Origin: Planctomycetota bacterium
GTDB taxonomy: Bacteria; Planctomycetota; UBA1135; UBA2386
DNA: 64,000 nucleotides
NCBI GenBank assembly: GCA_965228735.1
Contig: OZ245838.1
Coordinates: 3,968,001 to 4,032,000 of the forward strand
Reading direction: 5' to 3'
Below are positions 1,619-14,233 of this stretch, piece after piece; within the stretch, counting starts at the first letter, position 1; each line of letters starts with the position of its first letter. Made by a program: the position numbers and the translations under genes. The notes below the pieces were generated by a model. The model searched no databases, was not told the origin of the DNA, and saw only the letters and a list, made by a program, of their open reading frames with translations.

Positions 1619-1657
1619 CTCAGCGCAACCGCTCAGCGCGACCGCTCAGCGCAGTCG
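1619..1657. repeat. Three 13-nt tandem copies of CTCAGCGCRRYCG spanning the anti-sigma stop codon
   Basis: ctcagcgcaaccg ctcagcgcgaccg ctcagcgcagtcg read directly. Confidence 0.7.
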
Positions 1658-2962
1658 CTCGCGCCACTGCTCGAGGACTTCGTCGCGCTCGCCGACCGGC
1701 GCCTCGCGCCAGAACTTCAGGTCCTTCATCGCGTTCTTCGCGCCGCCGACGACACGCTCGAGCGCCCGGAAGCCCGCCGACCGCACGTTGACGTCGTTGC
1801 TCTCGAGCATCGCGAACAGCCACGGCGCCTGGCTGAACTCGGCGTGGCGCTCGATCATCTTCGCGGTCTTCTCGCGCAGCGCGGCGTCCCGCATCTCGAC
1901 CGTGTACTCGTAGAGCAGCGGCACGATGCGCGCGCCGTAGCGCCGCAGCTCGAGCACGGCCTCCTCGCGGAACCGGCCGGCGACGTAGGCCTCGACGAGC
2001 GCTTCGATGCTGTCGTTCATCTCCTGCGCGTCCTGCTGCAGGATCACCATCGGCACCATCCACCCTTTCACAGTGGGCACGAACGGGATGCGCTCGGGGC
2101 GGCTGATCGCGCCCTTCTCGTCGATCCACACGCGCGTCCGCTGCGTCACTCGCCGCGAGTCACCGCCCGCGGTGCGGATCTTCACGAAGCCGCTGAGTGC
2201 GAGCACGGCGCAGCCCTTCTCCTCCCGCTCGACGACGACCTCGGAGTCGCCCGTGAGAATCGTGGCGAAACCGGCCTCGATCCGGATCTGCTCCGGCGCC
2301 CCCATCGGCTTCATCCACAGTCGCCCGGCTTGCAACACGAACTCGGACTCGTCGATGAGCGCCACCGAATCGCGATCGAGCCGGACTGCCATGTCGGTGC
2401 CGTAGACGTAGATGCCCGCGAAGGCAGGCCCCGTACGGAACTGCGTGCCCCACTTGCAGTGGTAGCTGTTCGGGTAGAGCTCCTGCACGCCCTCGCCCGG
2501 CTCGTCGATCTCGATCTTGCCGAGGAAGTTGGTGAAGTAGAGCCCGGTCTCCATCGCCGGGCTGGGCTTCAGGTTGTTGTTGTTCTGCTTGTCCTGCGGA
2601 TCCTGGCCGTCCTCCGGGTTGCCGTCCGGGTTCTCGCCGTTCGGATCGCCCGTCTGGCCATCCCCCGTGCCGTCGGTCGTCCCATCGGTCGACGCGACGT
2701 CCTCACCCGTGGGCGTGAGCGCCGAACTCGTCGCGAGGCCCAGCACGATCCCGAGCGCGAGCACGCCGAGCAGCACCGCGGCGAGCGGCAGACCGATCGG
2801 GCCCCGCGGAGCGGGCTCCGGACCGGACGCGGCCACGGGCTCAGGCGTCACGTCCTCGATGGGCATCGCGTCCTCGAGCGCCGCGAGGACGGCCTGCGCG
2901 TCGTCGACGGGATCGCCGGCCAGCGGCCGGAGCGCGTCGCGTAGTTCGCGGTCGAGGTTCAT
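1646..2962 (-). CDS. Putative anti-sigma factor (one TM helix, low-complexity linker, FecR-like beta domain, helical C-terminus)
   Basis: Directly downstream of an ECF sigma gene; TM segment LPLAAVLLGVLALGIVLGL; FecR-like VRLDRDS..LQAGRLW..VLALSGFV. Confidence 0.7.
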   Translation of the reverse strand: MNLDRELRDALRPLAGDPVDDAQAVLAALEDAMPIEDVTPEPVAASGPEPAPRGPIGLPLAAVLLGVLALGIVLGLATSSALTPTGEDVASTDGTTDGTGDGQTGDPNGENPDGNPEDGQDPQDKQNNNNLKPSPAMETGLYFTNFLGKIEIDEPGEGVQELYPNSYHCKWGTQFRTGPAFAGIYVYGTDMAVRLDRDSVALIDESEFVLQAGRLWMKPMGAPEQIRIEAGFATILTGDSEVVVEREEKGCAVLALSGFVKIRTAGGDSRRVTQRTRVWIDEKGAISRPERIPFVPTVKGWMVPMVILQQDAQEMNDSIEALVEAYVAGRFREEAVLELRRYGARIVPLLYEYTVEMRDAALREKTAKMIERHAEFSQAPWLFAMLESNDVNVRSAGFRALERVVGGAKNAMKDLKFWREAPVGERDEVLEQWRERLR

Positions 2963-2975
2963 GCCACCCCTCCCT

Positions 2976-3587
2976 TCATGGCAGCCCTCCACCCGAACGG
3001 TTCGGCGCCGTCTCGTCCGAGGTCTCGTCATCACCGCTGAAGTCCTCGCCCAGCGCCTGCTTGAGCTGCTGGCGCGCGCGGTGGAGACGTTGACTGACGG
3101 CACCTTCGGTGATTCCGAGCATTGCGGCGATCTCCGCCATCGGCTTCTGCTCGAAATAAAACATCAGTACGGCTTCGCGAAGCGCCAATGGCAACCGTCC
3201 TACCTGACGGCGCATGTGCTCGAGACGTTCCTCCCGAATATCCGCGATTTGGTCCGGCTCGCTCGGCGTGGCGAAATCCACATCCGCCGTCGCCACGGGC
3301 TCACGACCCGAGCGGCGGATGGTGTCGACACAGATGTTATGGGCGATGCGGTGCAAGAACGCTGGAAAACGCTGCGGGTCTTCGAGACGAGACAAACCCC
3401 GAAATGCCCGCAGGAATGCTTCCTGAACCAGATCGTCCAGGTCGTCGCGCCGGCCTGTCCGCGCGAGGCACACCGCGCGTACGGACCGTGAGTATCGGAC
3501 TACGAGGAGTCCGAATGCCTCACGCGAACCGAGGATCGATTGGCGCACCAGGTCTTGATCCCTGGTGCCGGGAGCAATTGCCGACAA
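2976..3587 (-). CDS. ECF RNA polymerase sigma-70 factor
   Basis: Region 2 DDLVQEAFLRAF..FPAFLHRIAHN; region 4 LPLALREAVLM..EIAAMLGITEGAVSQRLHRAR; TTG start uncertain. Confidence 0.9.
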   Translation of the reverse strand: MSAIAPGTRDQDLVRQSILGSREAFGLLVVRYSRSVRAVCLARTGRRDDLDDLVQEAFLRAFRGLSRLEDPQRFPAFLHRIAHNICVDTIRRSGREPVATADVDFATPSEPDQIADIREERLEHMRRQVGRLPLALREAVLMFYFEQKPMAEIAAMLGITEGAVSQRLHRARQQLKQALGEDFSGDDETSDETAPNRSGGGLP

Positions 3588-3792
3588 GATCGGGTTGATA
3601 CGGAAGTCGCAGCGTTTTCGCCAGTCACGACAGAGAAACTGGGAATCGACGCTCGCGGTAGCCGCTGTTCTACGACCGGTTGCCGGCAAATCCTTGGAAC
3701 GGGTGAACTTCCGCACTCCACTGGATCGATGGCCGCAGGGTGGTAGACATGCCGATTCCAAGAGCCCCCGCCCCGTAACCGCCCTTCCCACC

Positions 3793-4881
3793 GTGCGTGT
3801 CCTCTCCGTCGTCGGCGCCCGCCCCAACTTCATGAAGGTGGCGCCCCTGACCGCCGCCCTGACTCGGCGTGGGCACGAGAGCCGGCTGGTCCACACGGGC
3901 CAGCACTACGACGACAACATGTCCGCGGCGTTCTTCCGCGATCTGCGGCTGCCGGAGCCGGACCACTATCTCGGGGTCGGTTCGGGCTCCCACGCGCAGA
4001 TGACGGCGGCGGTCATGACCGCGTTCGAGCCGATCCTGATCGAGGAAAAGCCCGATGTCGTGGTCGTCGTGGGCGATGTGAACTCGACCGTGGCCTGCAC
4101 GCTCGTCGCGACCAAGATGCACGTGCCCGTCGCCCACGTCGAGGCCGGGCTGCGCAGCCGCGACCGCACGATGCCCGAGGAGATCAACCGGCTCGTGACA
4201 GACGCGGTCGCCGACCTGCTGCTGACGCCGTCACCCGACGCCGATGAGAACCTGCGGGCGGAAGGCGTGCCCGCCGAACGCATCCACTTCGTCGGCAACA
4301 TCATGATCGACGCGCTGGCCGCGCGCTTTCAGAACGCGCCGCCGACCGACGTGATCGCGCGGCTCGGTCTCGAGGACGGCAAGTTCGGCGTCGTCACGCT
4401 GCATCGCCCGTCGAACGTCGACGACCCGGCGACGCTGCAGGGCATCGTCGACGCGCTCGTCGAGCTCAGCGCCGAGCTGCCGCTGGTGTTCCCGTGCCAC
4501 CCGCGCACGCGCAGTCGCCTGCAGATCGACCCCGCGGGGGCGCCGCAGCTGCACCTGACCGAACCGCTCGGCTACTTCGACTTCTCCACGCTCGTCAAGG
4601 GCAGCCGCCTCGTGCTGACCGACTCGGGCGGACTGCAGGAGGAGACGACCTGGCACGGCATCCCGTGCGTGACGATCCGGGAGAACACCGAACGGCCGAT
4701 CACGATCACGGCGGGCAGCAACGTGCTCGCCGGCAACGATCCGCGGAAGATCCTCGAGCTGGCGCGCGCGGCGCTGCAGCGTGGCGAACGGGAGGAATTC
4801 GGGGTGCCGGAGCTGTGGGATGGACGGACCGCCGACCGTATCGTGGACGTGTTGGAACAGTGGTGGGCGGTTCGGAGTTAG
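3793..4881 (+). CDS. wecB: UDP-N-acetylglucosamine 2-epimerase (non-hydrolysing)
   Basis: VVGARPNFMK, HTGQHYD, HVEAGLRS, MPEEINR, TDSGGLQEE, RENTERP motifs. Confidence 0.95.
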   Translation: MRVLSVVGARPNFMKVAPLTAALTRRGHESRLVHTGQHYDDNMSAAFFRDLRLPEPDHYLGVGSGSHAQMTAAVMTAFEPILIEEKPDVVVVVGDVNSTVACTLVATKMHVPVAHVEAGLRSRDRTMPEEINRLVTDAVADLLLTPSPDADENLRAEGVPAERIHFVGNIMIDALAARFQNAPPTDVIARLGLEDGKFGVVTLHRPSNVDDPATLQGIVDALVELSAELPLVFPCHPRTRSRLQIDPAGAPQLHLTEPLGYFDFSTLVKGSRLVLTDSGGLQEETTWHGIPCVTIRENTERPITITAGSNVLAGNDPRKILELARAALQRGEREEFGVPELWDGRTADRIVDVLEQWWAVRS

Positions 4882-6215
4882 TCGGACAACGCGGCGAGCC
4901 ACGACAGGAGCGGTTGGAAAGACCGCTCGGTGCCGTACGCCGTGGCCGGCTCGACGTCCATCGCGCCGCCGACCAGCCGCGCGATCGCGGCCGCGAGTTC
5001 GGCCGTCTGATCGTGCGTGAAGCAGTGGCCCGGCCCGCACGCCGCCTCGACGATGCGCCACGCGTCGCCGACCTTGCCGACGAACAGGATCGGCCGCCGC
5101 GCCATCAGGTAGTCGTAGAGCTTGGCCGGCACGAAGATGTTGTCGGCATCCTCTTCGCCGTTCACGAGCACGAGCGCGGTCGTGCCGCGCATCGCGCGCA
5201 GCGCCTCGCCGAACGGCACGTGGCCGTGCTGCCGAACGGCGGCCTTCACGAGGTCGCGCGTCGGCGCGAGGTCCTCGGTGAGCAGCGCCTGCGAGTCGGC
5301 CGCACCGCTGAACGCGTCGAGCCGCACCGTCCGCAGCACGTCGTCCGCGAGCGCGGACAACGCGCGCACGAACGGCAGCAGGCGACGGCGCGGGTAGATC
5401 GTGCCGAAGTAGCCGAGGTGGATGCCGGGGCGGCGCTCGATCGCGGGGCCCTGCGACTCGACCTGCTCCATGAGCGCGAAATCGGCGCCGTTGCGCATGA
5501 CCTCGACGTCGAACGGCAGACCCGTGCCGGCGCCATCAGTGTCCCCCATGTGTTCGAGGAAACTCGCCCTGGCCTCTTCGGTGTTGACGAACAGCACGTC
5601 AGCGTGCCGCAGCCAGCCGCGTTCGCGGTCGCGCAGGCGGCGCTGCAGCCGCGGGTTGCCGGCCGCGGTCCAGACGTTGCCCGTGAGCAGATCGCGGTAG
5701 TCGACGACGATCTTCACGCCGGGCACGAGTTTGCGAAGGCGCGGAATCGCGAGCAGCTGGCCGTGCGGGCCGCACGACAACACGACGACGTCGATGCCGT
5801 TCTCGCGCACGAGCCGGGGCAGGTGGCGCTTGAGCCGCAGCGCCCATTCGACGTGTCGATCGGGCAAGGCGAGCCACTTCGGCAGCTCGTGGTAGAGCGA
5901 CCGCAGGATCTTCTCCGGCAGGTTGCGCGCCGCGGGCCGGGAGTTGAGCGTCGGGCCGCCGAGGCCGTGGCGGACGACCGCGGGCGGGATCAGCGCCGCG
6001 AGCGTATCGTCTCGGACTTGCAGCAGCCGTTCGTCGAGACTGATCCAATGAACGTCGTGGCCGTGCGCGAGCAGCACGCGGCTCAGACGCAGCACGCGGT
6101 GGGATGCGACCGCGGGTTGCGGGGGCGCATAGAAGCTCACGATCGCGACGCGCCGGGCGCGATGCGCGCTCTGGTCGTCGCCAGGGGTCTCGGAGGGCTC
6201 GGCCGAAGCTGACAT
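4878..6215 (-). CDS. GT-B (family 4-like) glycosyltransferase
   Basis: SFYAPP..ASHR N-terminus, VVDYRD, GYFGTIY, PAKLYDYLMARRPIL. Confidence 0.85.
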   Translation of the reverse strand: MSASAEPSETPGDDQSAHRARRVAIVSFYAPPQPAVASHRVLRLSRVLLAHGHDVHWISLDERLLQVRDDTLAALIPPAVVRHGLGGPTLNSRPAARNLPEKILRSLYHELPKWLALPDRHVEWALRLKRHLPRLVRENGIDVVVLSCGPHGQLLAIPRLRKLVPGVKIVVDYRDLLTGNVWTAAGNPRLQRRLRDRERGWLRHADVLFVNTEEARASFLEHMGDTDGAGTGLPFDVEVMRNGADFALMEQVESQGPAIERRPGIHLGYFGTIYPRRRLLPFVRALSALADDVLRTVRLDAFSGAADSQALLTEDLAPTRDLVKAAVRQHGHVPFGEALRAMRGTTALVLVNGEEDADNIFVPAKLYDYLMARRPILFVGKVGDAWRIVEAACGPGHCFTHDQTAELAAAIARLVGGAMDVEPATAYGTERSFQPLLSWLAALSD

Positions 6216-7752
6216 GGGGGCTCTGCGGACATTAGCGCGCAACGTCGCCAGCAATGCCACAGGCTATGTGGTCGCGGCGGTGCTCGCGTTGATCGTGACG
6301 CCGATCGCGAACGACGAGCTCGGCGTCGAGCTCTACGGCGTCTGGCAGGCCATCGTCGCGCTGACTGGCTACTACGGCCTGCTCGACCTCGGGATCCGCG
6401 CGGCCGTGACCCAGTACATCGCGCGGCACTGGAGCCGCGGCGAGAACGAGGAGCTCGGGCGCCTGCTGAGCACGGCGCTCGCGATCACCGGGGCGATTGC
6501 CACGATCCTGCTGCTCGGCACGATCGGCCTGTCGTTCGTCGCCGATTGGTTCTTCGACGGCGCCGCCCGGGAATCGGCGCCCCACGCCATCCTCGTGTTC
6601 GGCGTCGGCGTCGCGATCTCGTTCCCGATGTCCGTGTTCGGCGCCGCGATCCAGGCCCGCGAGCGGTTCGATCTGGCCAACATCATCGGCATCACGGAGC
6701 GCGTCTTGTGCAGCGCGCTCTACGTGTGGGCCCTGCTCACCGGCAAGGGGATCATCGCGCTCGCCTGGATCACGACCGGCACGTCGGTCGCCGCCCACAT
6801 CGCGCGCGGCCTGATCGCCCGGCGTCTGCTGCCGGGCGTGCCGATCGCCGCCAACCTGGTGTGCCGCGAGAAGCGCAAGGACCTGTTCGGGTTCGGCCTC
6901 TACAGCTTCCTCGTGAGCATGAGCGACCGGCTCGTGCTCTACACCGACACGCTCATCATCCTGATCCTGATGAGCGAGGCCGCCGTCACCTACTACAGCA
7001 ACGGCGGCAGCTTCATCCACCACTACCTCGGGCTGATCGCGGCGATCGCGTGGACCCTGACGCCGCGCGCGACGAGCTTCGACGCGCTGCAGAACAAGGC
7101 CGCGCTGCGGCAGATGTGGTACACCGGATCCCGACTGATCGTGCAGTTCGCGACGATCGTGGGCGCCGGCCTGTTCTTCCTCGGCCACGACTTCATCGGT
7201 GTCTGGCTCGACCCCAAGTTCCTGCTCGGCGAACCCTACGCCTCGAGCGCCGTGATCATGCAGCTGCTCGCGCTCGCCGCGCTGACGCGCTGCCTGATGA
7301 CCTGCGGCAAGCAGGTGCTCTACGGCATGCGCGAGGTCCGCTTCCTCGCGCGACTGTCGGTCGCCGAAGCCGTCGCCAACATCGCGCTGTCGGTCCCGGG
7401 CGTGATCTTCTTCGGCAACATCGGCGTCGCGCTCGGCACGCTGATCCCGGCCGTCGTCGTGAACCTGTGGCTGCAGCCGCGCTTCGTGGCCAAGAAACTC
7501 GGCGCGTCGTACGGCCTGTTCCTCGGTAACGTCGTGCCACCCGCACTCATGGTGTTCGGGGCGATGGGCGCCGCGTCGTACGCGTCACGCGCCCTCGTGC
7601 CGGTCACCGGCTGGGGCACGTTCGCGGCCAACGTCGCGTTCGTCGGAACGGTCGGCGTCGGGGTGGCGTGGGCCTTCGGCCTCGGCCCCGCGGAGCGCGA
7701 GCGCGTGCTGCGCAAGCTGCCGTGGCGGACCGGGTCCGTCGAACGGAGTTAG
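6214..7752 (+). CDS. Polysaccharide flippase (Wzx/MOP family)
   Basis: LARNVASN start, LGVELYGVW, LLDLGI, many TM helices. Confidence 0.88.
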   Translation: MGALRTLARNVASNATGYVVAAVLALIVTPIANDELGVELYGVWQAIVALTGYYGLLDLGIRAAVTQYIARHWSRGENEELGRLLSTALAITGAIATILLLGTIGLSFVADWFFDGAARESAPHAILVFGVGVAISFPMSVFGAAIQARERFDLANIIGITERVLCSALYVWALLTGKGIIALAWITTGTSVAAHIARGLIARRLLPGVPIAANLVCREKRKDLFGFGLYSFLVSMSDRLVLYTDTLIILILMSEAAVTYYSNGGSFIHHYLGLIAAIAWTLTPRATSFDALQNKAALRQMWYTGSRLIVQFATIVGAGLFFLGHDFIGVWLDPKFLLGEPYASSAVIMQLLALAALTRCLMTCGKQVLYGMREVRFLARLSVAEAVANIALSVPGVIFFGNIGVALGTLIPAVVVNLWLQPRFVAKKLGASYGLFLGNVVPPALMVFGAMGAASYASRALVPVTGWGTFAANVAFVGTVGVGVAWAFGLGPAERERVLRKLPWRTGSVERS

Positions 7753-7771
7753 CCAATCGACCGGGCAGCCA

Positions 7772-7792
7772 CCGGCGGCGCGACGCCGCCGG
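7772..7792. terminator. GC-rich hairpin between convergent genes (possible bidirectional terminator, no U-tract)
   Basis: ccggcggcg-cga-cgccgccgg perfect 9-bp stem. Confidence 0.45.
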
Positions 7793-7814
7793 CGAACTGC
7801 GCGCGTGGCTGCGC

Positions 7815-8936
7815 CTACTGCGCGGCCCTCTCGGCGGCGGCGATCATCTCTTCGAGGACCTCTTCCATCTGGGTCTCGTTGCGCACGTTCTTGTGGCGGA
7901 TGACGCCGGCGTGATCGATGTAGAACAGCGTCGGCCAGCTGTTCACGCGCCAGGTGTCACTGATCTGCGGCGACACGCTCTCGTTCTGGAAGCTGCGCCA
8001 GGTGACGCCCATTTCCTCGGCCTTCTTGCGATACATCTCCAGGCCCTTCGGCCGGGTCGTGTTGTCGCTGTTGACGCCGATGAGAGCGAAGGGACGGTTC
8101 TTGAACTTTTCCACGAGCGACCGCTCGTGCGGGATCATTGCCACGCAGGGTGGTCACCAGAAGCCCCAGAAGTCCAGGAGGACGACCTTGCCGCGGTAGT
8201 CGCTGAGCTTGAACTTCGTGCCGTCGACGTCCGTCGCCGCGATGTCGGGCGCCTCGCAGCCGACCTGCAGGTGGCGGATCTCGAACAGCGCCTCGTCCGC
8301 CGCGGCGCACAGCTTCTCGTCCTTCGTCAGCTTGGCGACCGACTCGAGGTCTTGCTGCGCGGCTTCGCGGGCGGCGTCGCTGCGCGCGTTCTGCAGGCGC
8401 AGCTTGCCACGCTGCAGATGCGCGGACGCCTTCGCGGCGGCGTGCTCGTTGAACTCGATAACGTCGCTGAAGAGGTCCATGACCTCCTTCTCGCAACCCA
8501 TGCGGACCGCGGTCTCGACGTTGGCCAGGGCCTCGCCGATCTGCGCGCTCTCGCTGTGGTCGAGCGTCAGCGTCGCGAGCGTCTTCTTGACCTGCTCGGT
8601 CTCCTTCGTCGCGTACTTGAGGACGAAGCCGTGGAACAGGATCGCGACGTCCTCACCCGCGTGCTCGGTCGCGAGCTCCCGCGCCTGGGTGATGAACTTC
8701 TTGGACGGCGGGTTCATCGCGATCGCCGGCCGCGGCTGGTTCTTGCGCCGCGCCTCGGCCATGGCGGCCATGGCTTCCTTCTGCCACGCGCTGAACGCCT
8801 GCGTGTAGGCCTTGACGAGGCCGTCGTAGGCCGCCTGGGCCTGCTGCTGATCCGCCACCGCAGCGTCGCCATCCTGGGCGAGCGCGACCGTGGGCAGACC
8901 CAAGAGCAGGGAGGCGGCGAGAGAGGATCGAATCAC
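7815..8936 (-). CDS. Exported TlpA/AhpC-TSA thioredoxin-fold selenoprotein, 373 aa, UxxC (Sec261)
   Basis: ORFs 8154..8936 and 7815..8144 are in one frame joined by TGA at 8154-8156: VVLLDFWGFW-U-PPC-VAMIPHE; AAGGAG RBS, signal peptide, downstream SECIS-like hairpin. Confidence 0.92.
8112..8129 (-). promoter_or_regulatory. Bacterial SECIS-like hairpin
   Basis: mRNA CACGAGC-GGUC-GCUCGUG; apical loop begins 31 nt after the UGA. Confidence 0.75.
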
Positions 8937-9001
8937 TTGGATCTCCTTGCCGAACTGCTGGTATGGGGAACGCGAATACTACGTGAACATACCGAACCCG
9001 G

Positions 9002-9106
9002 TACTACCCGTACGGTACCTGGTTCATGCTGCCGGCCGGCGTAACGCGACCCGCAAGGCAACGCCCTCTCGGCCGGCAGCATGAACCAGGTACCGTACGG
9101 GTGGTA
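9002..9106. repeat. Long intergenic inverted repeat, REP/MITE-like element copy 1
   Basis: Arms 9002-9038 and 9070-9106 (core ccgtacggtacctggttcatgctgccggccg) with one mismatch; homologous copy at about 38.97 kb. Confidence 0.9.
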
Positions 9107-9136
9107 TGTTCACTTCGGTCGGGAAGAATCCCTGAC

Positions 9137-10798
9137 CTACTTGCCGCTGTCGGAGCCCTGCTCTTCCGCCGCCTTCGGCTGCACGAGGTCGGCGCGCGTC
9201 GGCTTCAGCTGGTCGAACAGCGCCTTGTCGATCACGTAGTACCAGGGTCCGAACCGCTTGGTCAGCGACTCGGCCTCTTCCTGGCCTTCCTCGACCTTCT
9301 TGTCGTACGCGTCCCAGGCATCGGCCAGGCGGCGCATGTCGTCCTCGAACGTCCACGCGTCGCTGCGGATGTCCGCGCTCTCGACCTCGCCGCCAGCCGC
9401 GCCGTCTTTGCCGTGACTCAGGACGACGAACGCCTCGCCCTCGACCTCGTAGAGGTAGTCGTTGCCCCACGGGTCCTTCGGCAGCTCAGCGAGCGGCGCC
9501 TCGCCCTCGGCGGGCTTCTCGGTCAGCGCCGTGATGGACGGCGGCAGCTTGCCGTCGTTGCGGTTGCGGTAGACGTCGACGGCCGCGACGACCTTCTCGA
9601 TCTGCTCGCGCGCCGCCCGGCGCTTCTCCATGTGCTCCTCGGCGACGCGCGCGCGCTCCGGCTTCTCGAGCAGCGCCTCGTCGAACTCGGCGACGACCAT
9701 GAGGTAGCGGTTGTTCTTGAGCACGGCCTCGCCGTTCTCGCCTTCCTTCTCCGAGCCGCCGATCTTGCCCGACGTGACCGAGTCGTCGTCGCCCGGAACG
9801 AGCTCGCCGAAGCGCAGCGTGTAGCGCACGCCCTTCTTCGTCTCGAAGATCAGGTCGCCCTCGTTGCTGTAGAGCTTGCCGTCGCGGGTCAGGAAGTAGC
9901 CCTTGTCCTGCAGCGTCTGCTGCAGCATCACCTGCTCGAAACCGGTCGCCTTCTCGAGCGCGCCGGTCAGCCCCTCGGGCTTGCTGCGCACGCCGACGAT
10001 CTTGATGCTCGTGAGCGCGTCCGCGATCTCGCGCAGCTTGTCGGCGTTGGGCTCCTCGGTCGCCTCGTCGAGGCCCTCGAGCGTCCACTGGTTCTCGGCG
10101 TTCTTCTGCACGACGAGCTTCTCGCCCGGCACGATGCGACCGGCTTGCTCGTCGATCGAGTAGTTGTCGAACACGACCTTCTGCATGTCGAACGCCTTCG
10201 CCTTGAGCAGATCGGTCTCGATCCAGTCGGCGAACCTCGTCGACAGCTCACCCTCGAGCTTGGTCGAGTAGGTGCGGCGCTTGCCGGGCTCGCGCACGTA
10301 GTAGACGTCGAGCTTGCCGTCGACCTCCTGGCCGACGATCAGGTCGGCGAGCGGGTTGCCCGAGTTGTCGCGCATCACGACGCGCGAGCCGCGGCCCGCC
10401 GAGTCCGAGCTCGGATCGAGCGGATCGACGACGCCGAACTCGACGTGGTCCTCCTTGCGGTCGCTCACGGCGCGCGTCTTGGTCAGCCCGATGAGCATGG
10501 CCGCGGCCTTGCCCATCTGGTCCTTCGCGTCGGCCGGATAGCCGCCGTGCGACGGGATGATCCAGCGGCCGTTCTTGTCGCGGCTCACGGCGAACTTGCG
10601 GGCCGTGGCCTTCTCGGCGTTGAACTCCGTCACCTCGAGCTCGACGGCGGCGTCGCTCGCGGTGAACGCGGGGAAGAACTCCTCGCCCTCGTCCGAGTAG
10701 AGGTCCTGCTGGACCTCACTGGGACCGAGCGACGCGGCAGCGACGGCGAGACCCGCGGCCGCGCCGAGGATGACGACGGTCTTGACGACCTGGCTCAT
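9137..10798 (-). CDS. DUF4340 domain protein with an inserted GspG (T2SSG)-like domain
   Basis: W..PSHGGYPAD, LIVG, YYVR..LSTRFADWI typical of DUF4340; insert contains LPKDPWGNDYLY..LSHGKDG..GG..ADI. Confidence 0.8.
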   Translation of the reverse strand: MSQVVKTVVILGAAAGLAVAAASLGPSEVQQDLYSDEGEEFFPAFTASDAAVELEVTEFNAEKATARKFAVSRDKNGRWIIPSHGGYPADAKDQMGKAAAMLIGLTKTRAVSDRKEDHVEFGVVDPLDPSSDSAGRGSRVVMRDNSGNPLADLIVGQEVDGKLDVYYVREPGKRRTYSTKLEGELSTRFADWIETDLLKAKAFDMQKVVFDNYSIDEQAGRIVPGEKLVVQKNAENQWTLEGLDEATEEPNADKLREIADALTSIKIVGVRSKPEGLTGALEKATGFEQVMLQQTLQDKGYFLTRDGKLYSNEGDLIFETKKGVRYTLRFGELVPGDDDSVTSGKIGGSEKEGENGEAVLKNNRYLMVVAEFDEALLEKPERARVAEEHMEKRRAAREQIEKVVAAVDVYRNRNDGKLPPSITALTEKPAEGEAPLAELPKDPWGNDYLYEVEGEAFVVLSHGKDGAAGGEVESADIRSDAWTFEDDMRRLADAWDAYDKKVEEGQEEAESLTKRFGPWYYVIDKALFDQLKPTRADLVQPKAAEEQGSDSGK

Positions 10799-13482
10799 GA
10801 CTGACTCCCTCCGCCGACCTGGCGGTTTGCGGGGACGATCGCCGCGGCGCGCGAGCTGCGGCGAATCAGAGTGACGATGCCGAGCAGCAGTGCCGGCACG
10901 GGCGCGAGCAGGATCGTCCAGAGGCGGTAGCCGTCGTGGATGCCCTTCTTCGCCTGGTTGCGTTCGTGCTGCGCGATGCTGATCCGGACGCGCTTGTCGT
11001 CCTCGATCTTCTGCTTCTTGGTCTCGAACTTGCGATTCTCGACCTGCTGGACCTCGACGATCTTGAGCTCCTTGCTCTGCGCGTCGAGCGTCTCGTCCTC
11101 GCGAATCGCGGCGACCGCGGCATCGAGCCGCGCCTGCGCGTCATCGAGCTCCTTCTTGGCCTCGGCCTCGGCCTTGTCGCGCTCCTCGATCCACTTCTTC
11201 TCGAACTCGGCCTGCGCTTCCTGCACCGCCGTGAGGCGACGCAGCACCGGCCGGCGCTTGCGCAGGTCGATCAGCGACTCGTCGCCGACGAGGCTGTCGA
11301 TGCAGTTGAGCACGAACGTGACGTTGTCGAACCGCGTATTCACGTCGGGCGAGTTCTTGCGCAGCTGGAAGAACTGGTTGCCGACGACATCCAGGTCCGC
11401 GCAGGCGATGAAGTCGACCTTGCCGCTCGGGTCGCTCTCACCCTCGCTGGCGGCCACCGGGCCGGTGACCCGGACCGCGAGGTCGTAGCGCTGGTTCTGC
11501 GGCCTCGTCCGGCCACCCGGGTTGAGCTGCAGACGGCCGCCGAACGGGCTCCAGACCAGCAGGCCGTCGCGGGCCCCCTGGCTCGACTCGTACTTCGGAA
11601 TCACGCCGTTGACGAGGCCGCGCGCCGTCGGGTCCGCGGACATGACGAGCGGCTCGACCTCGAAGCCGTCCTTGCCGGCTTCATCGAAGTGACTGCCCGC
11701 CATCCAGATCACCGACTGCATGCCGCTCGTGATCACGCTGTCCTGCGCGAGCCCGCCGTTGTCGCTGCTGCACGCGAGGAAGTACTCGGGCAGACCGCCG
11801 CCGAGCAGGCCGACCTGGGTCTTGTCGAACACGATGTCCGTCTTGCGACACGTGAGCCCGAGGCCGCGGAAGAAGGCGTCGACGTTGCCCTTCTGCGGGC
11901 CGCCGCCGCCCATCATGCGCTGCTGCATGCTGCCCTTCTGGTCGTCGGCGGCCGTGCCCGGCGCGCTGATGGGCAGCGGGTCCTCGAACAGCAACGCCCG
12001 GTTGCCGGCCAGGATCCACTCCTGCAGCTTGTCCATCTGCGGCTGTTCGAGCGAGCTCGGCTGCGGCACGACGAGGCAGTCGATGTCGGTCGGATAGTCC
12101 TCGGACGGGTCGACGTTCTGCACCTCGTACTGCTGCTCGAGCTCCGTCGCGATCTCCCACTTGGGCTTCTGCGCGAACGTCTGGAAGTCGAAGCCGCCGA
12201 TCATGTCGACGTCCGTCTTGAGCAGGCCGATCTTCTTGCGGTCCTTGTTGCTCACGACGCGGATGCTGCGCGTGACCTCGTACTCGAGCGGCTGCGTCGG
12301 CTGGATGAACGGCGTGATGACTTCTTCGGTGCCGCTCGCGACGACGAGGCCGAGGAAGATCTGCATCTCCGCGTAGCCGCCGCCCGGCAGCGGCTGGGCG
12401 ACCATCTGCGGCCGGATGCCGTAGTTGGACTCGGCCCGCCGCGCCTCCTCGGAGAACGGCTCGGGGATCACGACGCTCTTGCGGATCGCGTCACCGCCGA
12501 TCGAATCGAACTGGTCGAGCAGGTTGAGCAGCAGGCGGCGCTGCTCGATGAAGTTCTCGGGCACGTCCTCGCTGACGTAGGCCGTGACGAACACCGGCGT
12601 GCTCGGATCGAGCGAGGCGATCAGTTCGCGGCTCTCGTCACCGAGCGAATGGATGCCCTCGACCGTCGCGTCGATGCGCGGCAGGTAGTAGACGCCGATG
12701 ACGGTGAGGGACAGCGTGGCAACCGCGAGGCCCGCTGCCTGCGTAACGCCGTGCGCGCCCTCGACGCCGCCGCGCCATCGCTGGCGGCCGAGCAGAGCGA
12801 GATTGAGCCAGAGGAAGGCGAACGTCAGGCCGAGGAACAGCACGACGCCCGAGAAGGGGATCATGCCGCGCGCGAACTCGTTGAACTGCCCGATCGTGCC
12901 GTTGACCTGCCAACTCGTGAAACCGACCCAGCCGAGGACCTCGCCGAGGTAGATGACGAGGGCGCAGGCGATGACCGACAGGATGAACGCGACGGTCTGG
13001 TTCTGCGTCAGCTGCGAGCCGAGCATCGAGACCGCTACGAGCATCACACCGAGCAGCCAATAGCCGACGTAGTTGCTGAACAGCTGTCCGAAGTCCGGGT
13101 TGCCGAGCAACATCAGCGTGAACGGCAGTGCCAGCGTGAACAGCAGGGACAGCGAGTAGACCGCGACGTAGGCCAGGTACTTGCCGACCAGGAGGTCGAC
13201 GTCACGCGCCGGCAGCGTGAACAGCAATTCTTGCGTGCCGTTGCTGCGCTCGTTGGTCCACATGCCCATCGTCGCGGCGGCGACGAAGACGGCAGCGATC
13301 TCGGGGAACCAATGGCTCCAGGTCTCGAGGTTGGCGAGGTTGTTCTGGAAGAACCCCTGTGACCACATCATGACGCCCGCCGACACCGCGACGAACAGCA
13401 TGATGAAGACGTAGCCGGTCGGGTTGCCGAACCAGCTCTTGAGGTCGCGCTTGGCGACCGCGAAGACGACGTTGGTGTTCAT
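10795..13482 (-). CDS. ABC transporter permease fused to a GldG-like auxiliary domain
   Basis: KRDLKSWFGNPTGY, ERSNGTQELLFTLP, GKYLA permease motifs followed by a large extracytoplasmic domain with LEYEVTRSI. Confidence 0.9.
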   Translation of the reverse strand: MNTNVVFAVAKRDLKSWFGNPTGYVFIMLFVAVSAGVMMWSQGFFQNNLANLETWSHWFPEIAAVFVAAATMGMWTNERSNGTQELLFTLPARDVDLLVGKYLAYVAVYSLSLLFTLALPFTLMLLGNPDFGQLFSNYVGYWLLGVMLVAVSMLGSQLTQNQTVAFILSVIACALVIYLGEVLGWVGFTSWQVNGTIGQFNEFARGMIPFSGVVLFLGLTFAFLWLNLALLGRQRWRGGVEGAHGVTQAAGLAVATLSLTVIGVYYLPRIDATVEGIHSLGDESRELIASLDPSTPVFVTAYVSEDVPENFIEQRRLLLNLLDQFDSIGGDAIRKSVVIPEPFSEEARRAESNYGIRPQMVAQPLPGGGYAEMQIFLGLVVASGTEEVITPFIQPTQPLEYEVTRSIRVVSNKDRKKIGLLKTDVDMIGGFDFQTFAQKPKWEIATELEQQYEVQNVDPSEDYPTDIDCLVVPQPSSLEQPQMDKLQEWILAGNRALLFEDPLPISAPGTAADDQKGSMQQRMMGGGGPQKGNVDAFFRGLGLTCRKTDIVFDKTQVGLLGGGLPEYFLACSSDNGGLAQDSVITSGMQSVIWMAGSHFDEAGKDGFEVEPLVMSADPTARGLVNGVIPKYESSQGARDGLLVWSPFGGRLQLNPGGRTRPQNQRYDLAVRVTGPVAASEGESDPSGKVDFIACADLDVVGNQFFQLRKNSPDVNTRFDNVTFVLNCIDSLVGDESLIDLRKRRPVLRRLTAVQEAQAEFEKKWIEERDKAEAEAKKELDDAQARLDAAVAAIREDETLDAQSKELKIVEVQQVENRKFETKKQKIEDDKRVRISIAQHERNQAKKGIHDGYRLWTILLAPVPALLLGIVTLIRRSSRAAAIVPANRQVGGGSQS

Positions 13483-13495
13483 GTTCTCGCGTCTC

Positions 13496-14233
13496 CTAGT
13501 TGGTGGCCGCGCCGGTCAGGTTGTGGAACGCCTGGTCCATCGCGCCGCTGCCGCGCTGCTTGAACTCGGCGGGCGTGCCGTCGAACGCGAGCTTGCCTGC
13601 GTCCACGAGCAGCACGCGCCCGGCCATCGCCTCGACCTCCTGGAACAGGTGCGTCGACAGCAGGATCGTGCGCGTCTCGCCGAGCTTCTTGACGAGCTCG
13701 CGCACGTGGCGGATCTGGTTGGGATCGAGCCCGGTCGTCGGCTCGTCGAGGATCAGCACCTCGGGATCGTGGAACAGCGCCTGCGCCATGCCCGTGCGCT
13801 GCTTCTGGCCCTTGCTGCACTTGCCGATCGGCTTGTCGAGCAGGTCCTGCAGCGCGCACTCCTCGGTGACGAACTCGAGGCGCTCCTTGATACGCGCGGT
13901 GTTCATGCCGCGCGCTTCACCGAAGAACGACAGCAGCTCGCGCGGCGTCATCTCGGGATACAGCGGCCCGTTCTCGGGCAGGTAGCCGAGCTTCTCGACG
14001 GCCCGCACGCGATCCTGCGTGATGTCGACGCCGCACAACCTGCCGGTGCCGGACGTCGGCGCGAGGTACCCAGTCAGCACCTTCATCGTCGTCGACTTGC
14101 CGGCGCCGTTCGGGCCGAGGAACGCGACGACTTCACCGCGCGTGATGGTGAAACTCAGATGATCGATGGCAGCGAACGACCCGTAGTACTTGCACAGGTC
14201 GACCGCTTCGATCATGGGCTCTCGTTCGCTCAT
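13496..14233 (-). CDS. ABC transporter ATP-binding protein (GldA-like)
   Basis: Walker A GPNGAGKST, signature SKGQKQR, Walker B LILDEPT. Confidence 0.95.
   Translation of the reverse strand: MSEREPMIEAVDLCKYYGSFAAIDHLSFTITRGEVVAFLGPNGAGKSTTMKVLTGYLAPTSGTGRLCGVDITQDRVRAVEKLGYLPENGPLYPEMTPRELLSFFGEARGMNTARIKERLEFVTEECALQDLLDKPIGKCSKGQKQRTGMAQALFHDPEVLILDEPTTGLDPNQIRHVRELVKKLGETRTILLSTHLFQEVEAMAGRVLLVDAGKLAFDGTPAEFKQRGSGAMDQAFHNLTGAATN

What the first reader, a model, noticed from the sequence alone, without database searches (positions are those of the whole stretch)
7815..8936. Exported TlpA-like selenoprotein hidden by an in-frame UGA (W-U-P-P-C)
Seen: two ORFs are one reading frame joined by TGA exactly where the first Cys of a thioredoxin CxxC belongs. 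A perfect hairpin with a GGUC loop follows, 31 nt downstream. The N-terminus has a signal peptide and a helical domain. Known: UGA plus a downstream SECIS encodes selenocysteine in bacteria. Standard annotation would call this a truncated gene or pseudogene.
Basis: partly seen in the sequence, partly recalled or inferred. Interest (0 to 1): 0.7.

Follow-up and report, generated by a model that had tools for sequence, protein, structure and literature searches.

The report
Exported selenocysteine thioredoxin split by annotation
Two apparent genes are one reading frame joined by a TGA at an enzyme's catalytic site, almost certainly read as selenocysteine to make a likely exported disulfide-reducing enzyme, a real but already familiar kind of bacterial selenoprotein.

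Summary
Confirmed, on the minus strand. 8936→7815 is one 373-aa frame with TGA (8156-8154) at the first position of W-U-P-P-C in a ResA/TlpA-fold domain, behind a predicted signal peptide and an all-helical domain. The genome has selA, selB, Sec-containing selD and tRNA-Sec. The 7-bp GGUC hairpin meets all four published bacterial SECIS criteria. Its 18-mer occurs four times in 7.2 Mb, each time 24 nt after a paralogue's TGA. In a codon-neutral scan, 117 of 119 relatives have TGA with the hairpin codons nearly frozen; four Cys copies examined have lost it. All 46 of 301 phylum genomes carrying the TGA form have selA. Four runs from four studies show no base difference. In 3 of 19 orthologous loci a DsbD gene with its own active-site TGA lies directly upstream, pointing to a DsbD-fed envelope reductase (inferred). 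UxxC TlpA-like selenoproteins have been catalogued since 2005, split candidates were reported in a planctomycete in 2016, and this scan noted this family at least five times in other genomes. Verdict: new member of a known kind; interest 0.3.

The parts
7815..8936 (-). Single gene for a 373-aa predicted selenoprotein (GTG start, TAG stop, one in-frame TGA)
   Evidence: read-through model mean pLDDT 94.1 (C in place of U)
8943..8948 (-). Shine-Dalgarno-like AAGGAG 6 nt before the GTG start
   Evidence: sequence
8877..8936 (-). Predicted Sec-pathway signal peptide, residues 1-20, cleavage after A-L-A inferred; no lipobox Cys, no Tat motif
   Evidence: hydropathy; 84 of 88 truncated homologues have a hydrophobic N-terminal core, 0 of 88 a Tat motif
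8271..8876 (-). All-helical domain, residues 21-222: a long first helix, then helical hairpins (alpha-solenoid, TPR-like arrangement); no specific family
   Evidence: model pLDDT 96.2; best Z 13.0 to a designed toroid, Z 8-11 to natural TPR/solenoid proteins; no Foldseek match at E<=0.001; no Pfam match
7818..8270 (-). ResA/TlpA-type thioredoxin domain, residues 223-373, with U261-P-P-C264 and the W334-P335 loop
   Evidence: PF00578 E 7.8e-19, PF08534 E 6e-17; ResA 4nmu E 7.7e-17; Z 19.9, rmsd 1.8 A over 136 residues to ResA 2f9s
8154..8156 (-). In-frame TGA, predicted selenocysteine 261 (nucleophile position)
8145..8147 (-). TGC, Cys264 (resolving position of UxxC)
8112..8129 (-). SECIS hairpin, 7 bp with GGUC loop (loop 8122-8119), overlapping the codons for H-E-R-S-L-V
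   Evidence: criteria from PMC13188914

Best explanation
The frame runs through an in-frame TGA at the catalytic position, which is almost certainly read as selenocysteine to give a predicted exported ResA/TlpA-type enzyme that likely reduces disulfides in the cell envelope with electrons that would come from DsbD. Shown: one frame, the UxxC position, the hairpin and its conservation, the Sec machinery, the predicted fold. Inferred from established Sec decoding: SelB with Sec-tRNA binds the GGUC hairpin and decodes the UGA. Inferred from family knowledge of ResA/TlpA/CcmG: after export and signal cleavage, the Sec261 selenolate attacks a substrate disulfide or oxidised Cys, Cys264 resolves it, and the Se-S bond is re-reduced by a DsbD alpha domain. 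Inferred from gene neighbourhood: the donor is the genome's DsbD, which has a TGA at its own gamma-domain active site. The helical domain probably selects substrates or partners (untested). The substrate is not identified. Sec reading about 0.96; DsbD-fed reductase role about 0.7.
For: Sec machinery: selA 454 bits, selB 337 bits, selD 367 bits with its own TGA, tRNA-Sec 76.6 bits, all over cut-off. TGA conservation: 108 of 112 matches in 49 of 61 family genomes contain a TGA; its position was checked in 31 copies and is the active-site codon in all 31. A scan neutral at that codon gave 117 TGA, 1 TGT and 1 TGC of 119. SECIS constraint among those 117: Arg codon CGG 117/117, Ser TCG 116/116, Leu CTC 114/116, against top-codon shares of 0.36-0.79 at flanking Gly, Pro, Ala and Phe codons. 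The inner six pairs are kept in 116/117, GG loop in 117/117, energy <= -7.5 in 115/117; one copy has a G-C to A-U double change. Four Cys copies keep only 4-5 of 7 pairs and lack the GG loop. Co-occurrence: 46 of 46 genomes with the TGA form have selA, which 221 of 301 have (hypergeometric 1.6e-7, overstated because kin are not independent). Fold: ResA/TlpA. DsbD link: in 3 of 19 orthologous loci (L224, L227, L228; 2 genera) a DsbD gene (PF11412 x2, PF02683, PF13899 checked on L227) with TGA at its UxxC ends 68, 4 and 8 nt before the start on the same strand. Of 55 family genomes with a DsbD match, 39 of 43 with a TGA-containing DsbD carry this family, against 4 of 12 with a stop-free DsbD (Fisher p 1.5e-4, kin not independent).
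Against: No protein, 75Se or RNA evidence. Covariation is weak because the hairpin hardly varies: 50 of 500 shuffles reach the observed score on a hand-picked 20-sequence set. The Cys control is only 4 sequences. The DsbD gene is adjacent in just 3 of 19 loci and lies about 287 kb away in this genome; in 16 of 19 loci the upstream neighbour is a Gld-like ABC/DUF4340 cluster instead. The DsbD co-occurrence may reflect general loss of selenoproteins in a few genera. The TGA position in DsbD was checked in only 4 genomes. Redox direction cannot be read from sequence. No curated NCBIfam cut-off is reached.
Confidence: 0.7

Rival explanations
1. It is the same selenoprotein, but it works as a peroxide-reducing (Prx-like) enzyme or as a disulfide isomerase or oxidase, not as a DsbD-fed reductase.
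For: [quoted passage not shown] Peroxiredoxins appear among the fold matches at Z 13-15. A substrate-binding helical domain would also suit an isomerase (inference).
Against: The motif is W-U-x-x-C, not the PxxxTxxU peroxiredoxin motif (PMC13188914). The best structural and sequence matches are ResA, DsbE and TlpA. DsbD is adjacent in 3 loci.
Confidence: 0.17
2. It is the same selenoprotein, dedicated to the upstream Gld-like ABC transporter and DUF4340 protein, keeping their periplasmic cysteines or cargo reduced.
For: The ABC/GldFG-like/DUF4340 cluster lies upstream on the same strand in the window and in 16 of 19 orthologous loci. The GldFG-like protein has 6 Cys.
Against: In at least 5 of those 16 loci an opposite-strand gene lies between (L210, L211, L212, L217, L220), which argues against one transcript. 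The DUF4340 protein has no Cys. All loci come from one family, so the order may simply be inherited.
Confidence: 0.08
3. UGA is a true stop, giving a 260-aa exported helical protein and a separate 107-109-aa fragment, or a pseudogene.
For: Databases hold it that way: 90 of 120 listed homologues end at FWxxW (their stop codons were not seen). An in-frame ATG follows six codons after the TGA. Some termination at UGA is expected when selenium is scarce (own knowledge).
Against: The break cuts a thioredoxin fold at the nucleophile. Both halves stay in frame and conserved, the codon at this position is never TAA or TAG in the 31 copies checked, the hairpin is tied to TGA, and the TGA form was not found in any of 80 genomes without a selA match.
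Confidence: 0.02
4. UGA is read through as Cys or Trp by a changed genetic code or a suppressor tRNA.
For: Cys homologues exist (27 of 120 listed full-length hits have WCxxC).
Against: The only UCA-anticodon tRNA among 67 found is tRNA-Sec. TGA ends ordinary genes in this genome, for example the paralogue whose TGA lies at C1:206071 ends in TGA. The conserved hairpin would be unnecessary.
Confidence: 0.02

Closest known systems
[quoted passage not shown]
   Same: UxxC motif in a PF00578/PF13905 thioredoxin-like domain, in-frame UGA, downstream SECIS.
   Different: A 200-aa helical domain, a signal peptide and a near-invariant 18-nt SECIS in HERSLV codons. I did not compare sequences with the families' named reference proteins. 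Both published families are predictions only.
'thiol-disulfide isomerase-like thioredoxin' selenoprotein candidates of planctomycete P1 (PMC4807772, Table S9, read whole)
   Same: Planctomycete host, annotated as two separate genes, Cys homologue.
   Different: Those two were listed with no SECIS found by bSECISearch, whereas this one meets all four criteria. Whether they belong to the same subfamily was not tested.
ResA / TlpA / CcmG (DsbE) extracytoplasmic thiol-disulfide reductases (PDB 2f9s, 4nmu, 1jfu, 3gl3)
   Same: Fold (Z 19.9, rmsd 1.8 A over 136 residues), W-C/U-x-x-C site, loop Pro aligned, export.
   Different: Sec for Cys, predicted cleavable signal instead of a membrane anchor, extra helical domain, scores far below NCBIfam cut-offs, no cytochrome c maturation genes among the neighbours examined.
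Selenoprotein operons such as Tso, with the rhodanese/DsbD-like TsoB (NF045694; PMC13188914 section 9 and table passages)
   Same: Sec in linked redox proteins, including a DsbD-like one.
   Different: The linked DsbD here is a plain alpha-alpha-beta-gamma type with UxxC, and it is adjacent only in 3 of 19 relatives, not in this window.

Membership tests
Bacterial selenoprotein (UGA-Sec) | In-frame UGA aligned to a catalytic Cys of homologues | tested here: met
Bacterial selenoprotein (UGA-Sec) | selA, selB, selC, selD in the genome | tested here: met
Bacterial selenoprotein (UGA-Sec) | SECIS model: 3-9 nt loop, 4-16 bp stem, G in first two loop positions, 16-37 nt spacing, energy <= -7.5 kcal/mol | tested here: met
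   4 nt, 7 bp, GG, 31 nt, -10.5; criteria from PMC13188914; bSECISearch itself was not available
Bacterial selenoprotein (UGA-Sec) | Selenium detected in the protein | not testable with these tools
   needs 75Se labelling or mass spectrometry
TlpA/ResA-like thioredoxin superfamily (PF00578/PF08534/PF13905) | Domain match over Pfam gathering score, spanning the UGA | tested here: met
   68.3 vs 26, 62.2 vs 26.6, 39.3 vs 27 bits
TlpA/ResA-like thioredoxin superfamily (PF00578/PF08534/PF13905) | ResA-type fold with CxxC-position motif and loop Pro | tested here: met
   (predicted model)
TlpA/ResA-like thioredoxin superfamily (PF00578/PF08534/PF13905) | Extracytoplasmic location | tested here: inconclusive
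   signal peptide by hydropathy and pattern only; no dedicated predictor or experiment
TlpA/ResA-like thioredoxin superfamily (PF00578/PF08534/PF13905) | Reduced by DsbD/CcdA | tested here: inconclusive
   adjacent DsbD in 3 of 19 loci; co-occurrence; no biochemical test
ResA (NF002854) or rhizobial TlpA (NF047696) in the strict sense | Score over curated cut-off | tested here: not met
   77.4 vs 170 and 52.8 vs 230 bits
WAxxUGC / UGC-containing TlpA selenoproteins (NF041054) | UGC motif and score over cut-off | tested here: not met
   motif is UPPC; 33.6 vs 300 bits
Sec-peroxiredoxin | PxxxTxxU motif | tested here: not met
   motif from PMC13188914
Published 'Thiol-disulfide isomerase-like' UxxC selenoprotein family (cd02966) | Homology to the family's reference sequences or CDD model | not tested
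   CDD and the reference proteins were not searched; motif and the PF13905 match agree
TPR repeat proteins (N-terminal domain) | TPR profile match or clear structural match | tested here: inconclusive
   no Pfam match; Z 8-11 to TPR proteins, within the range common for helical folds; Atlas lead TPR_6 at 0.81

The most novel reading that the evidence does not exclude
This family is the output arm of an undescribed all-selenium envelope relay in Planctomycetota: a Sec-DsbD passes electrons to several Sec-TlpA paralogues whose helical domains choose different clients, among them the genome's many other exported selenoproteins. Sec is the ancestral and dominant state, and the SECIS has fixed the protein's own HERSLV sequence.
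Probability: 0.3. Interest if true: 0.55.

Novelty: new member of a known kind. Interest (0 to 1): 0.3.

Why it matters
Mostly as an annotation correction at scale: 90 of the 120 best database homologues are truncated at the active site, and the TGA form occurs in 46 of 301 sampled genomes of the phylum. No experimentally verified member of the two nearest published families is listed (they are filed as predicted in PMC9312934 and PMC13188914), so this family, with its compact and nearly invariant SECIS, is a convenient test case for extracytoplasmic Sec chemistry. The adjacent Sec-DsbD in three relatives gives a concrete, testable electron donor.

Tried and rejected
Plus-strand reading: an open shadow frame without motif; rejected. 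Global folding stability after the UGA: not above shuffles. Extended lower SECIS stem: RNAalifold on 117 copies finds only the 6-bp core. Covariation test: not significant, as the stem is nearly invariant (one of 21 rows was a mistyped one-base reference and added only gaps). Sigma-70 promoter and terminator scans of 7600-9200: none. Expression: no RNA holder listed, which says nothing either way; small unlaid shares in that list were not used. N-terminal domain: no Pfam, NCBIfam or Foldseek assignment; Atlas hits are the family's own truncated clusters. Larger Cys control: only 2 of 301 phylum genomes matched the Cys pattern. Operon with the Gld-like ABC cluster: weakened by intervening opposite-strand genes. 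Downstream neighbours are not conserved. No complex prediction with DsbD was run. Literature: 7 searches found no paper on this subfamily or on a Sec-DsbD/Sec-TlpA pair; the library lacks most subscription journals, the BSepDB database could not be queried, and supplement files 13-14 of PMC4807772 were not searched.

Full report
Observation. The plus strand holds only a shadow frame. On the minus strand, 8936→7815 is one frame of 373 codons with a single internal TGA at 8156-8154, giving D-F-W-G-F-W-U-P-P-C; table 11 splits it into 260-aa and 109-aa ORFs. AAGGAG lies 6 nt before the GTG start. A 7-bp hairpin with a GGUC loop spans 8129→8112, the loop starting 31 nt after the UGA. It folds at -10.5 kcal/mol, although the wider region is not more stable than shuffles. 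Contigs of four runs from four studies match 7700-9035 without a difference.

Sec machinery. The single-contig 7.19-Mb genome has selA, selB and selD over the curated cut-offs, selD with its own in-frame TGA, and tRNA-Sec at 76.6 bits against a gathering score of 47. It is the only UCA tRNA among 67. selA and selB are each found in 57 of 60 family genomes.

Conservation of the TGA. The genome has three close paralogues with TGA at the same position and one more distant UGPC protein; the other five thioredoxin hits have Cys. In the family, 49 of 61 genomes match and 108 of 112 matches contain a TGA; in the 31 copies whose position I checked it is the active-site codon. Of the 120 best of 563 database homologues, 90 end at FWxxW, 27 are full-length WCxxC proteins and 3 are other. 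In 301 genomes of the phylum the TGA form occurs in 46 and the Cys form in 2. All 46 have selA, against 221 of 301 overall (compared by hand from the two tables; 1.6e-7 if genomes were independent, which they are not).

SECIS. The review PMC13188914 (passages) gives four criteria, and all are met: loop 4 nt with stem 7 bp, GG first, spacing 31 nt, energy -10.5. The 18-mer occurs four times in the genome, each 24 nt after a paralogue's TGA. Among 117 TGA copies, the codons under the hairpin are nearly frozen (CGG 117/117, TCG 116/116, CTC 114/116, GAG 115/117) while flanking codons vary freely. The inner six pairs hold in 116 of 117, and the terminal pair in 78 of 117. Changes are mostly G-U wobbles, with one G-C to A-U double change and one broken pair. 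Formal covariation is weak (50 of 500 shuffles, on 20 hand-picked rows). Four Cys copies keep 4-5 of 7 pairs and lack the GG loop; this control is small.

Protein. Residues 1-20 look like a cleavable signal peptide, with no later transmembrane segment; 84 of 88 truncated homologues have a similar hydrophobic start (hydropathy only). The read-through model has mean pLDDT 94. Residues 223-373 match PF00578, PF08534 and PF13905 over their cut-offs and superpose on ResA at Z 19.9, rmsd 1.8 A over 136 residues. No NCBIfam cut-off is reached. Residues 21-222 form a helical solenoid with only generic matches: Z 13 to a designed toroid, 8-11 to TPR-type proteins, none by Foldseek at E<=0.001.

Neighbourhood and mechanism. 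Upstream in the window lie an ABC ATPase, a GldF/G-like permease and a DUF4340 protein. This cluster precedes the gene in 16 of 19 orthologous loci, but opposite-strand genes intervene in at least five, so it may be inherited order. In three loci (L224, L227, L228; two genera) a DsbD gene with TGA at its own UxxC site ends 68, 4 and 8 nt before the start; domains were confirmed on L227. L224 has both the DsbD and, further up, the ABC cluster. This genome's matching DsbD, also with TGA, lies about 287 kb away. Among 55 of 60 family genomes with a DsbD match, 39 of 43 with a TGA-containing DsbD carry this family, against 4 of 12 with a stop-free DsbD; this may reflect a general loss of Sec in a few genera. 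The most likely mechanism is that SelB decodes the UGA, the protein is exported, Sec261 and Cys264 reduce envelope disulfides, DsbD recharges them, and the helical domain selects clients. The first step follows from established Sec biology; the rest is inference from family knowledge and neighbourhood.

What is known. UxxC 'Prx-like' and 'thiol-disulfide isomerase-like' selenoproteins were listed in 2005 (PMC1088965, passages) and in later reviews as predicted families (PMC9312934, passages; PMC13188914, passages and section 9). PMC4807772 lists two split 'thiol-disulfide isomerase-like thioredoxin' candidates in a planctomycete (passages and Table S9). BSepDB holds 57,630 entries in 111 families (PMC13326102, section 11) and may contain this subfamily; I could not query it. 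PMC12013277 gave nothing specific (one passage). Seven searches found no paper on this subfamily. Earlier notes of this scan report the same family in five other genomes and a Sec-DsbD operon elsewhere; these are unchecked AI notes and were not used as support.

Verdict. Observation confirmed, interpretation supported, new member of a known kind, interest 0.3. The bolder reading, an all-selenium DsbD-to-TlpA envelope relay, has probability about 0.3 and would merit about 0.55.

Noticed in passing
G000 whole genome (loci L170-L209): Large predicted selenoproteome. Of 344 TGAs with coding signal on both sides, I hand-picked 52 and scanned 40. In 25 of 40 the TGA lies inside a matched redox or metal-binding family (Prx, Bcp, Grx, MsrA, AhpD, deiodinase-like, HMA, rhodanese, ArsC, SelL-like, VPGUxxT, DsbD and others); 3 looked like true stops between genes. 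With SelD and the four TlpA-like genes that makes about 30 supported and up to about 40 candidates; the top 10 in BSepDB have 46-63.
   Followed up: partly
G000 C1:3484699(+), 6929513(+), 4855623(-), 7087946(-); L179-L182: Four paralogues with signal-peptide-like starts and a G-H-P-L-G-x-T-U motif, with no Pfam or NCBIfam match; L209 and L208 look similar in layout. Possibly an uncurated selenoprotein family.
   Followed up: partly
G000 C1:3065085(+), 5872224(-), 406817(-); L185, L189, L190: Three FG-GAP repeat proteins with a U-C dipeptide and a shared hairpin with an AGUUC loop 19 nt after the TGA. FG-GAP selenoprotein candidates were listed for planctomycetes in PMC4807772 Table S9.
   Followed up: partly
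G000 C1:2372(-) and 2123(-); L198, L199: One small exported-looking frame with two in-frame TGAs, each in a G-x-G-U context resembling heavy-metal-associated domains; no family match.
   Followed up: no
G000 C1:4263181-about 4265730 (-); L205; relatives L224, L227, L228: DsbD-type gene with TGA at the gamma-domain UxxC; 43 of 55 family genomes with a match have a TGA inside it. In G005 it lies directly upstream of a distant stop-free TlpA-like gene.
   Followed up: partly
window 9002-9106: Palindromic element with 37-nt arms, 97% complementary, fold z -10.9, between the DUF4340 gene and the selenoprotein gene. It has about 50 copies in the genome, so it is a REP- or MITE-like repeat not specific to this gene.
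   Followed up: partly
window 8136-8153 (-), and 117 relatives: A second small hairpin directly after the UGA: +1..+21 folds at a mean -6.3 against -3.1 kcal/mol for synonymous resampling, more stable in 99 of 117. It is absent from the RNAalifold consensus and weak in the window (-5.0). Role unexplained.
   Followed up: partly
window 9137-14233 (-): ABC ATPase, GldF/GldG-like fusion and a DUF4340 protein carrying a T2SSG (pseudopilin-like) domain; conserved upstream of the selenoprotein gene in 16 of 19 loci.
   Followed up: partly
window 1646-7752: A flippase, GT4 glycosyltransferase and UDP-GlcNAc 2-epimerase block sits between the selenoprotein gene and an ECF-sigma-like/anti-sigma-like pair (labels from sequence appearance, not scanned). 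In both same-genus relatives the sigma-like gene follows the selenoprotein gene directly, suggesting an insertion here.
   Followed up: no
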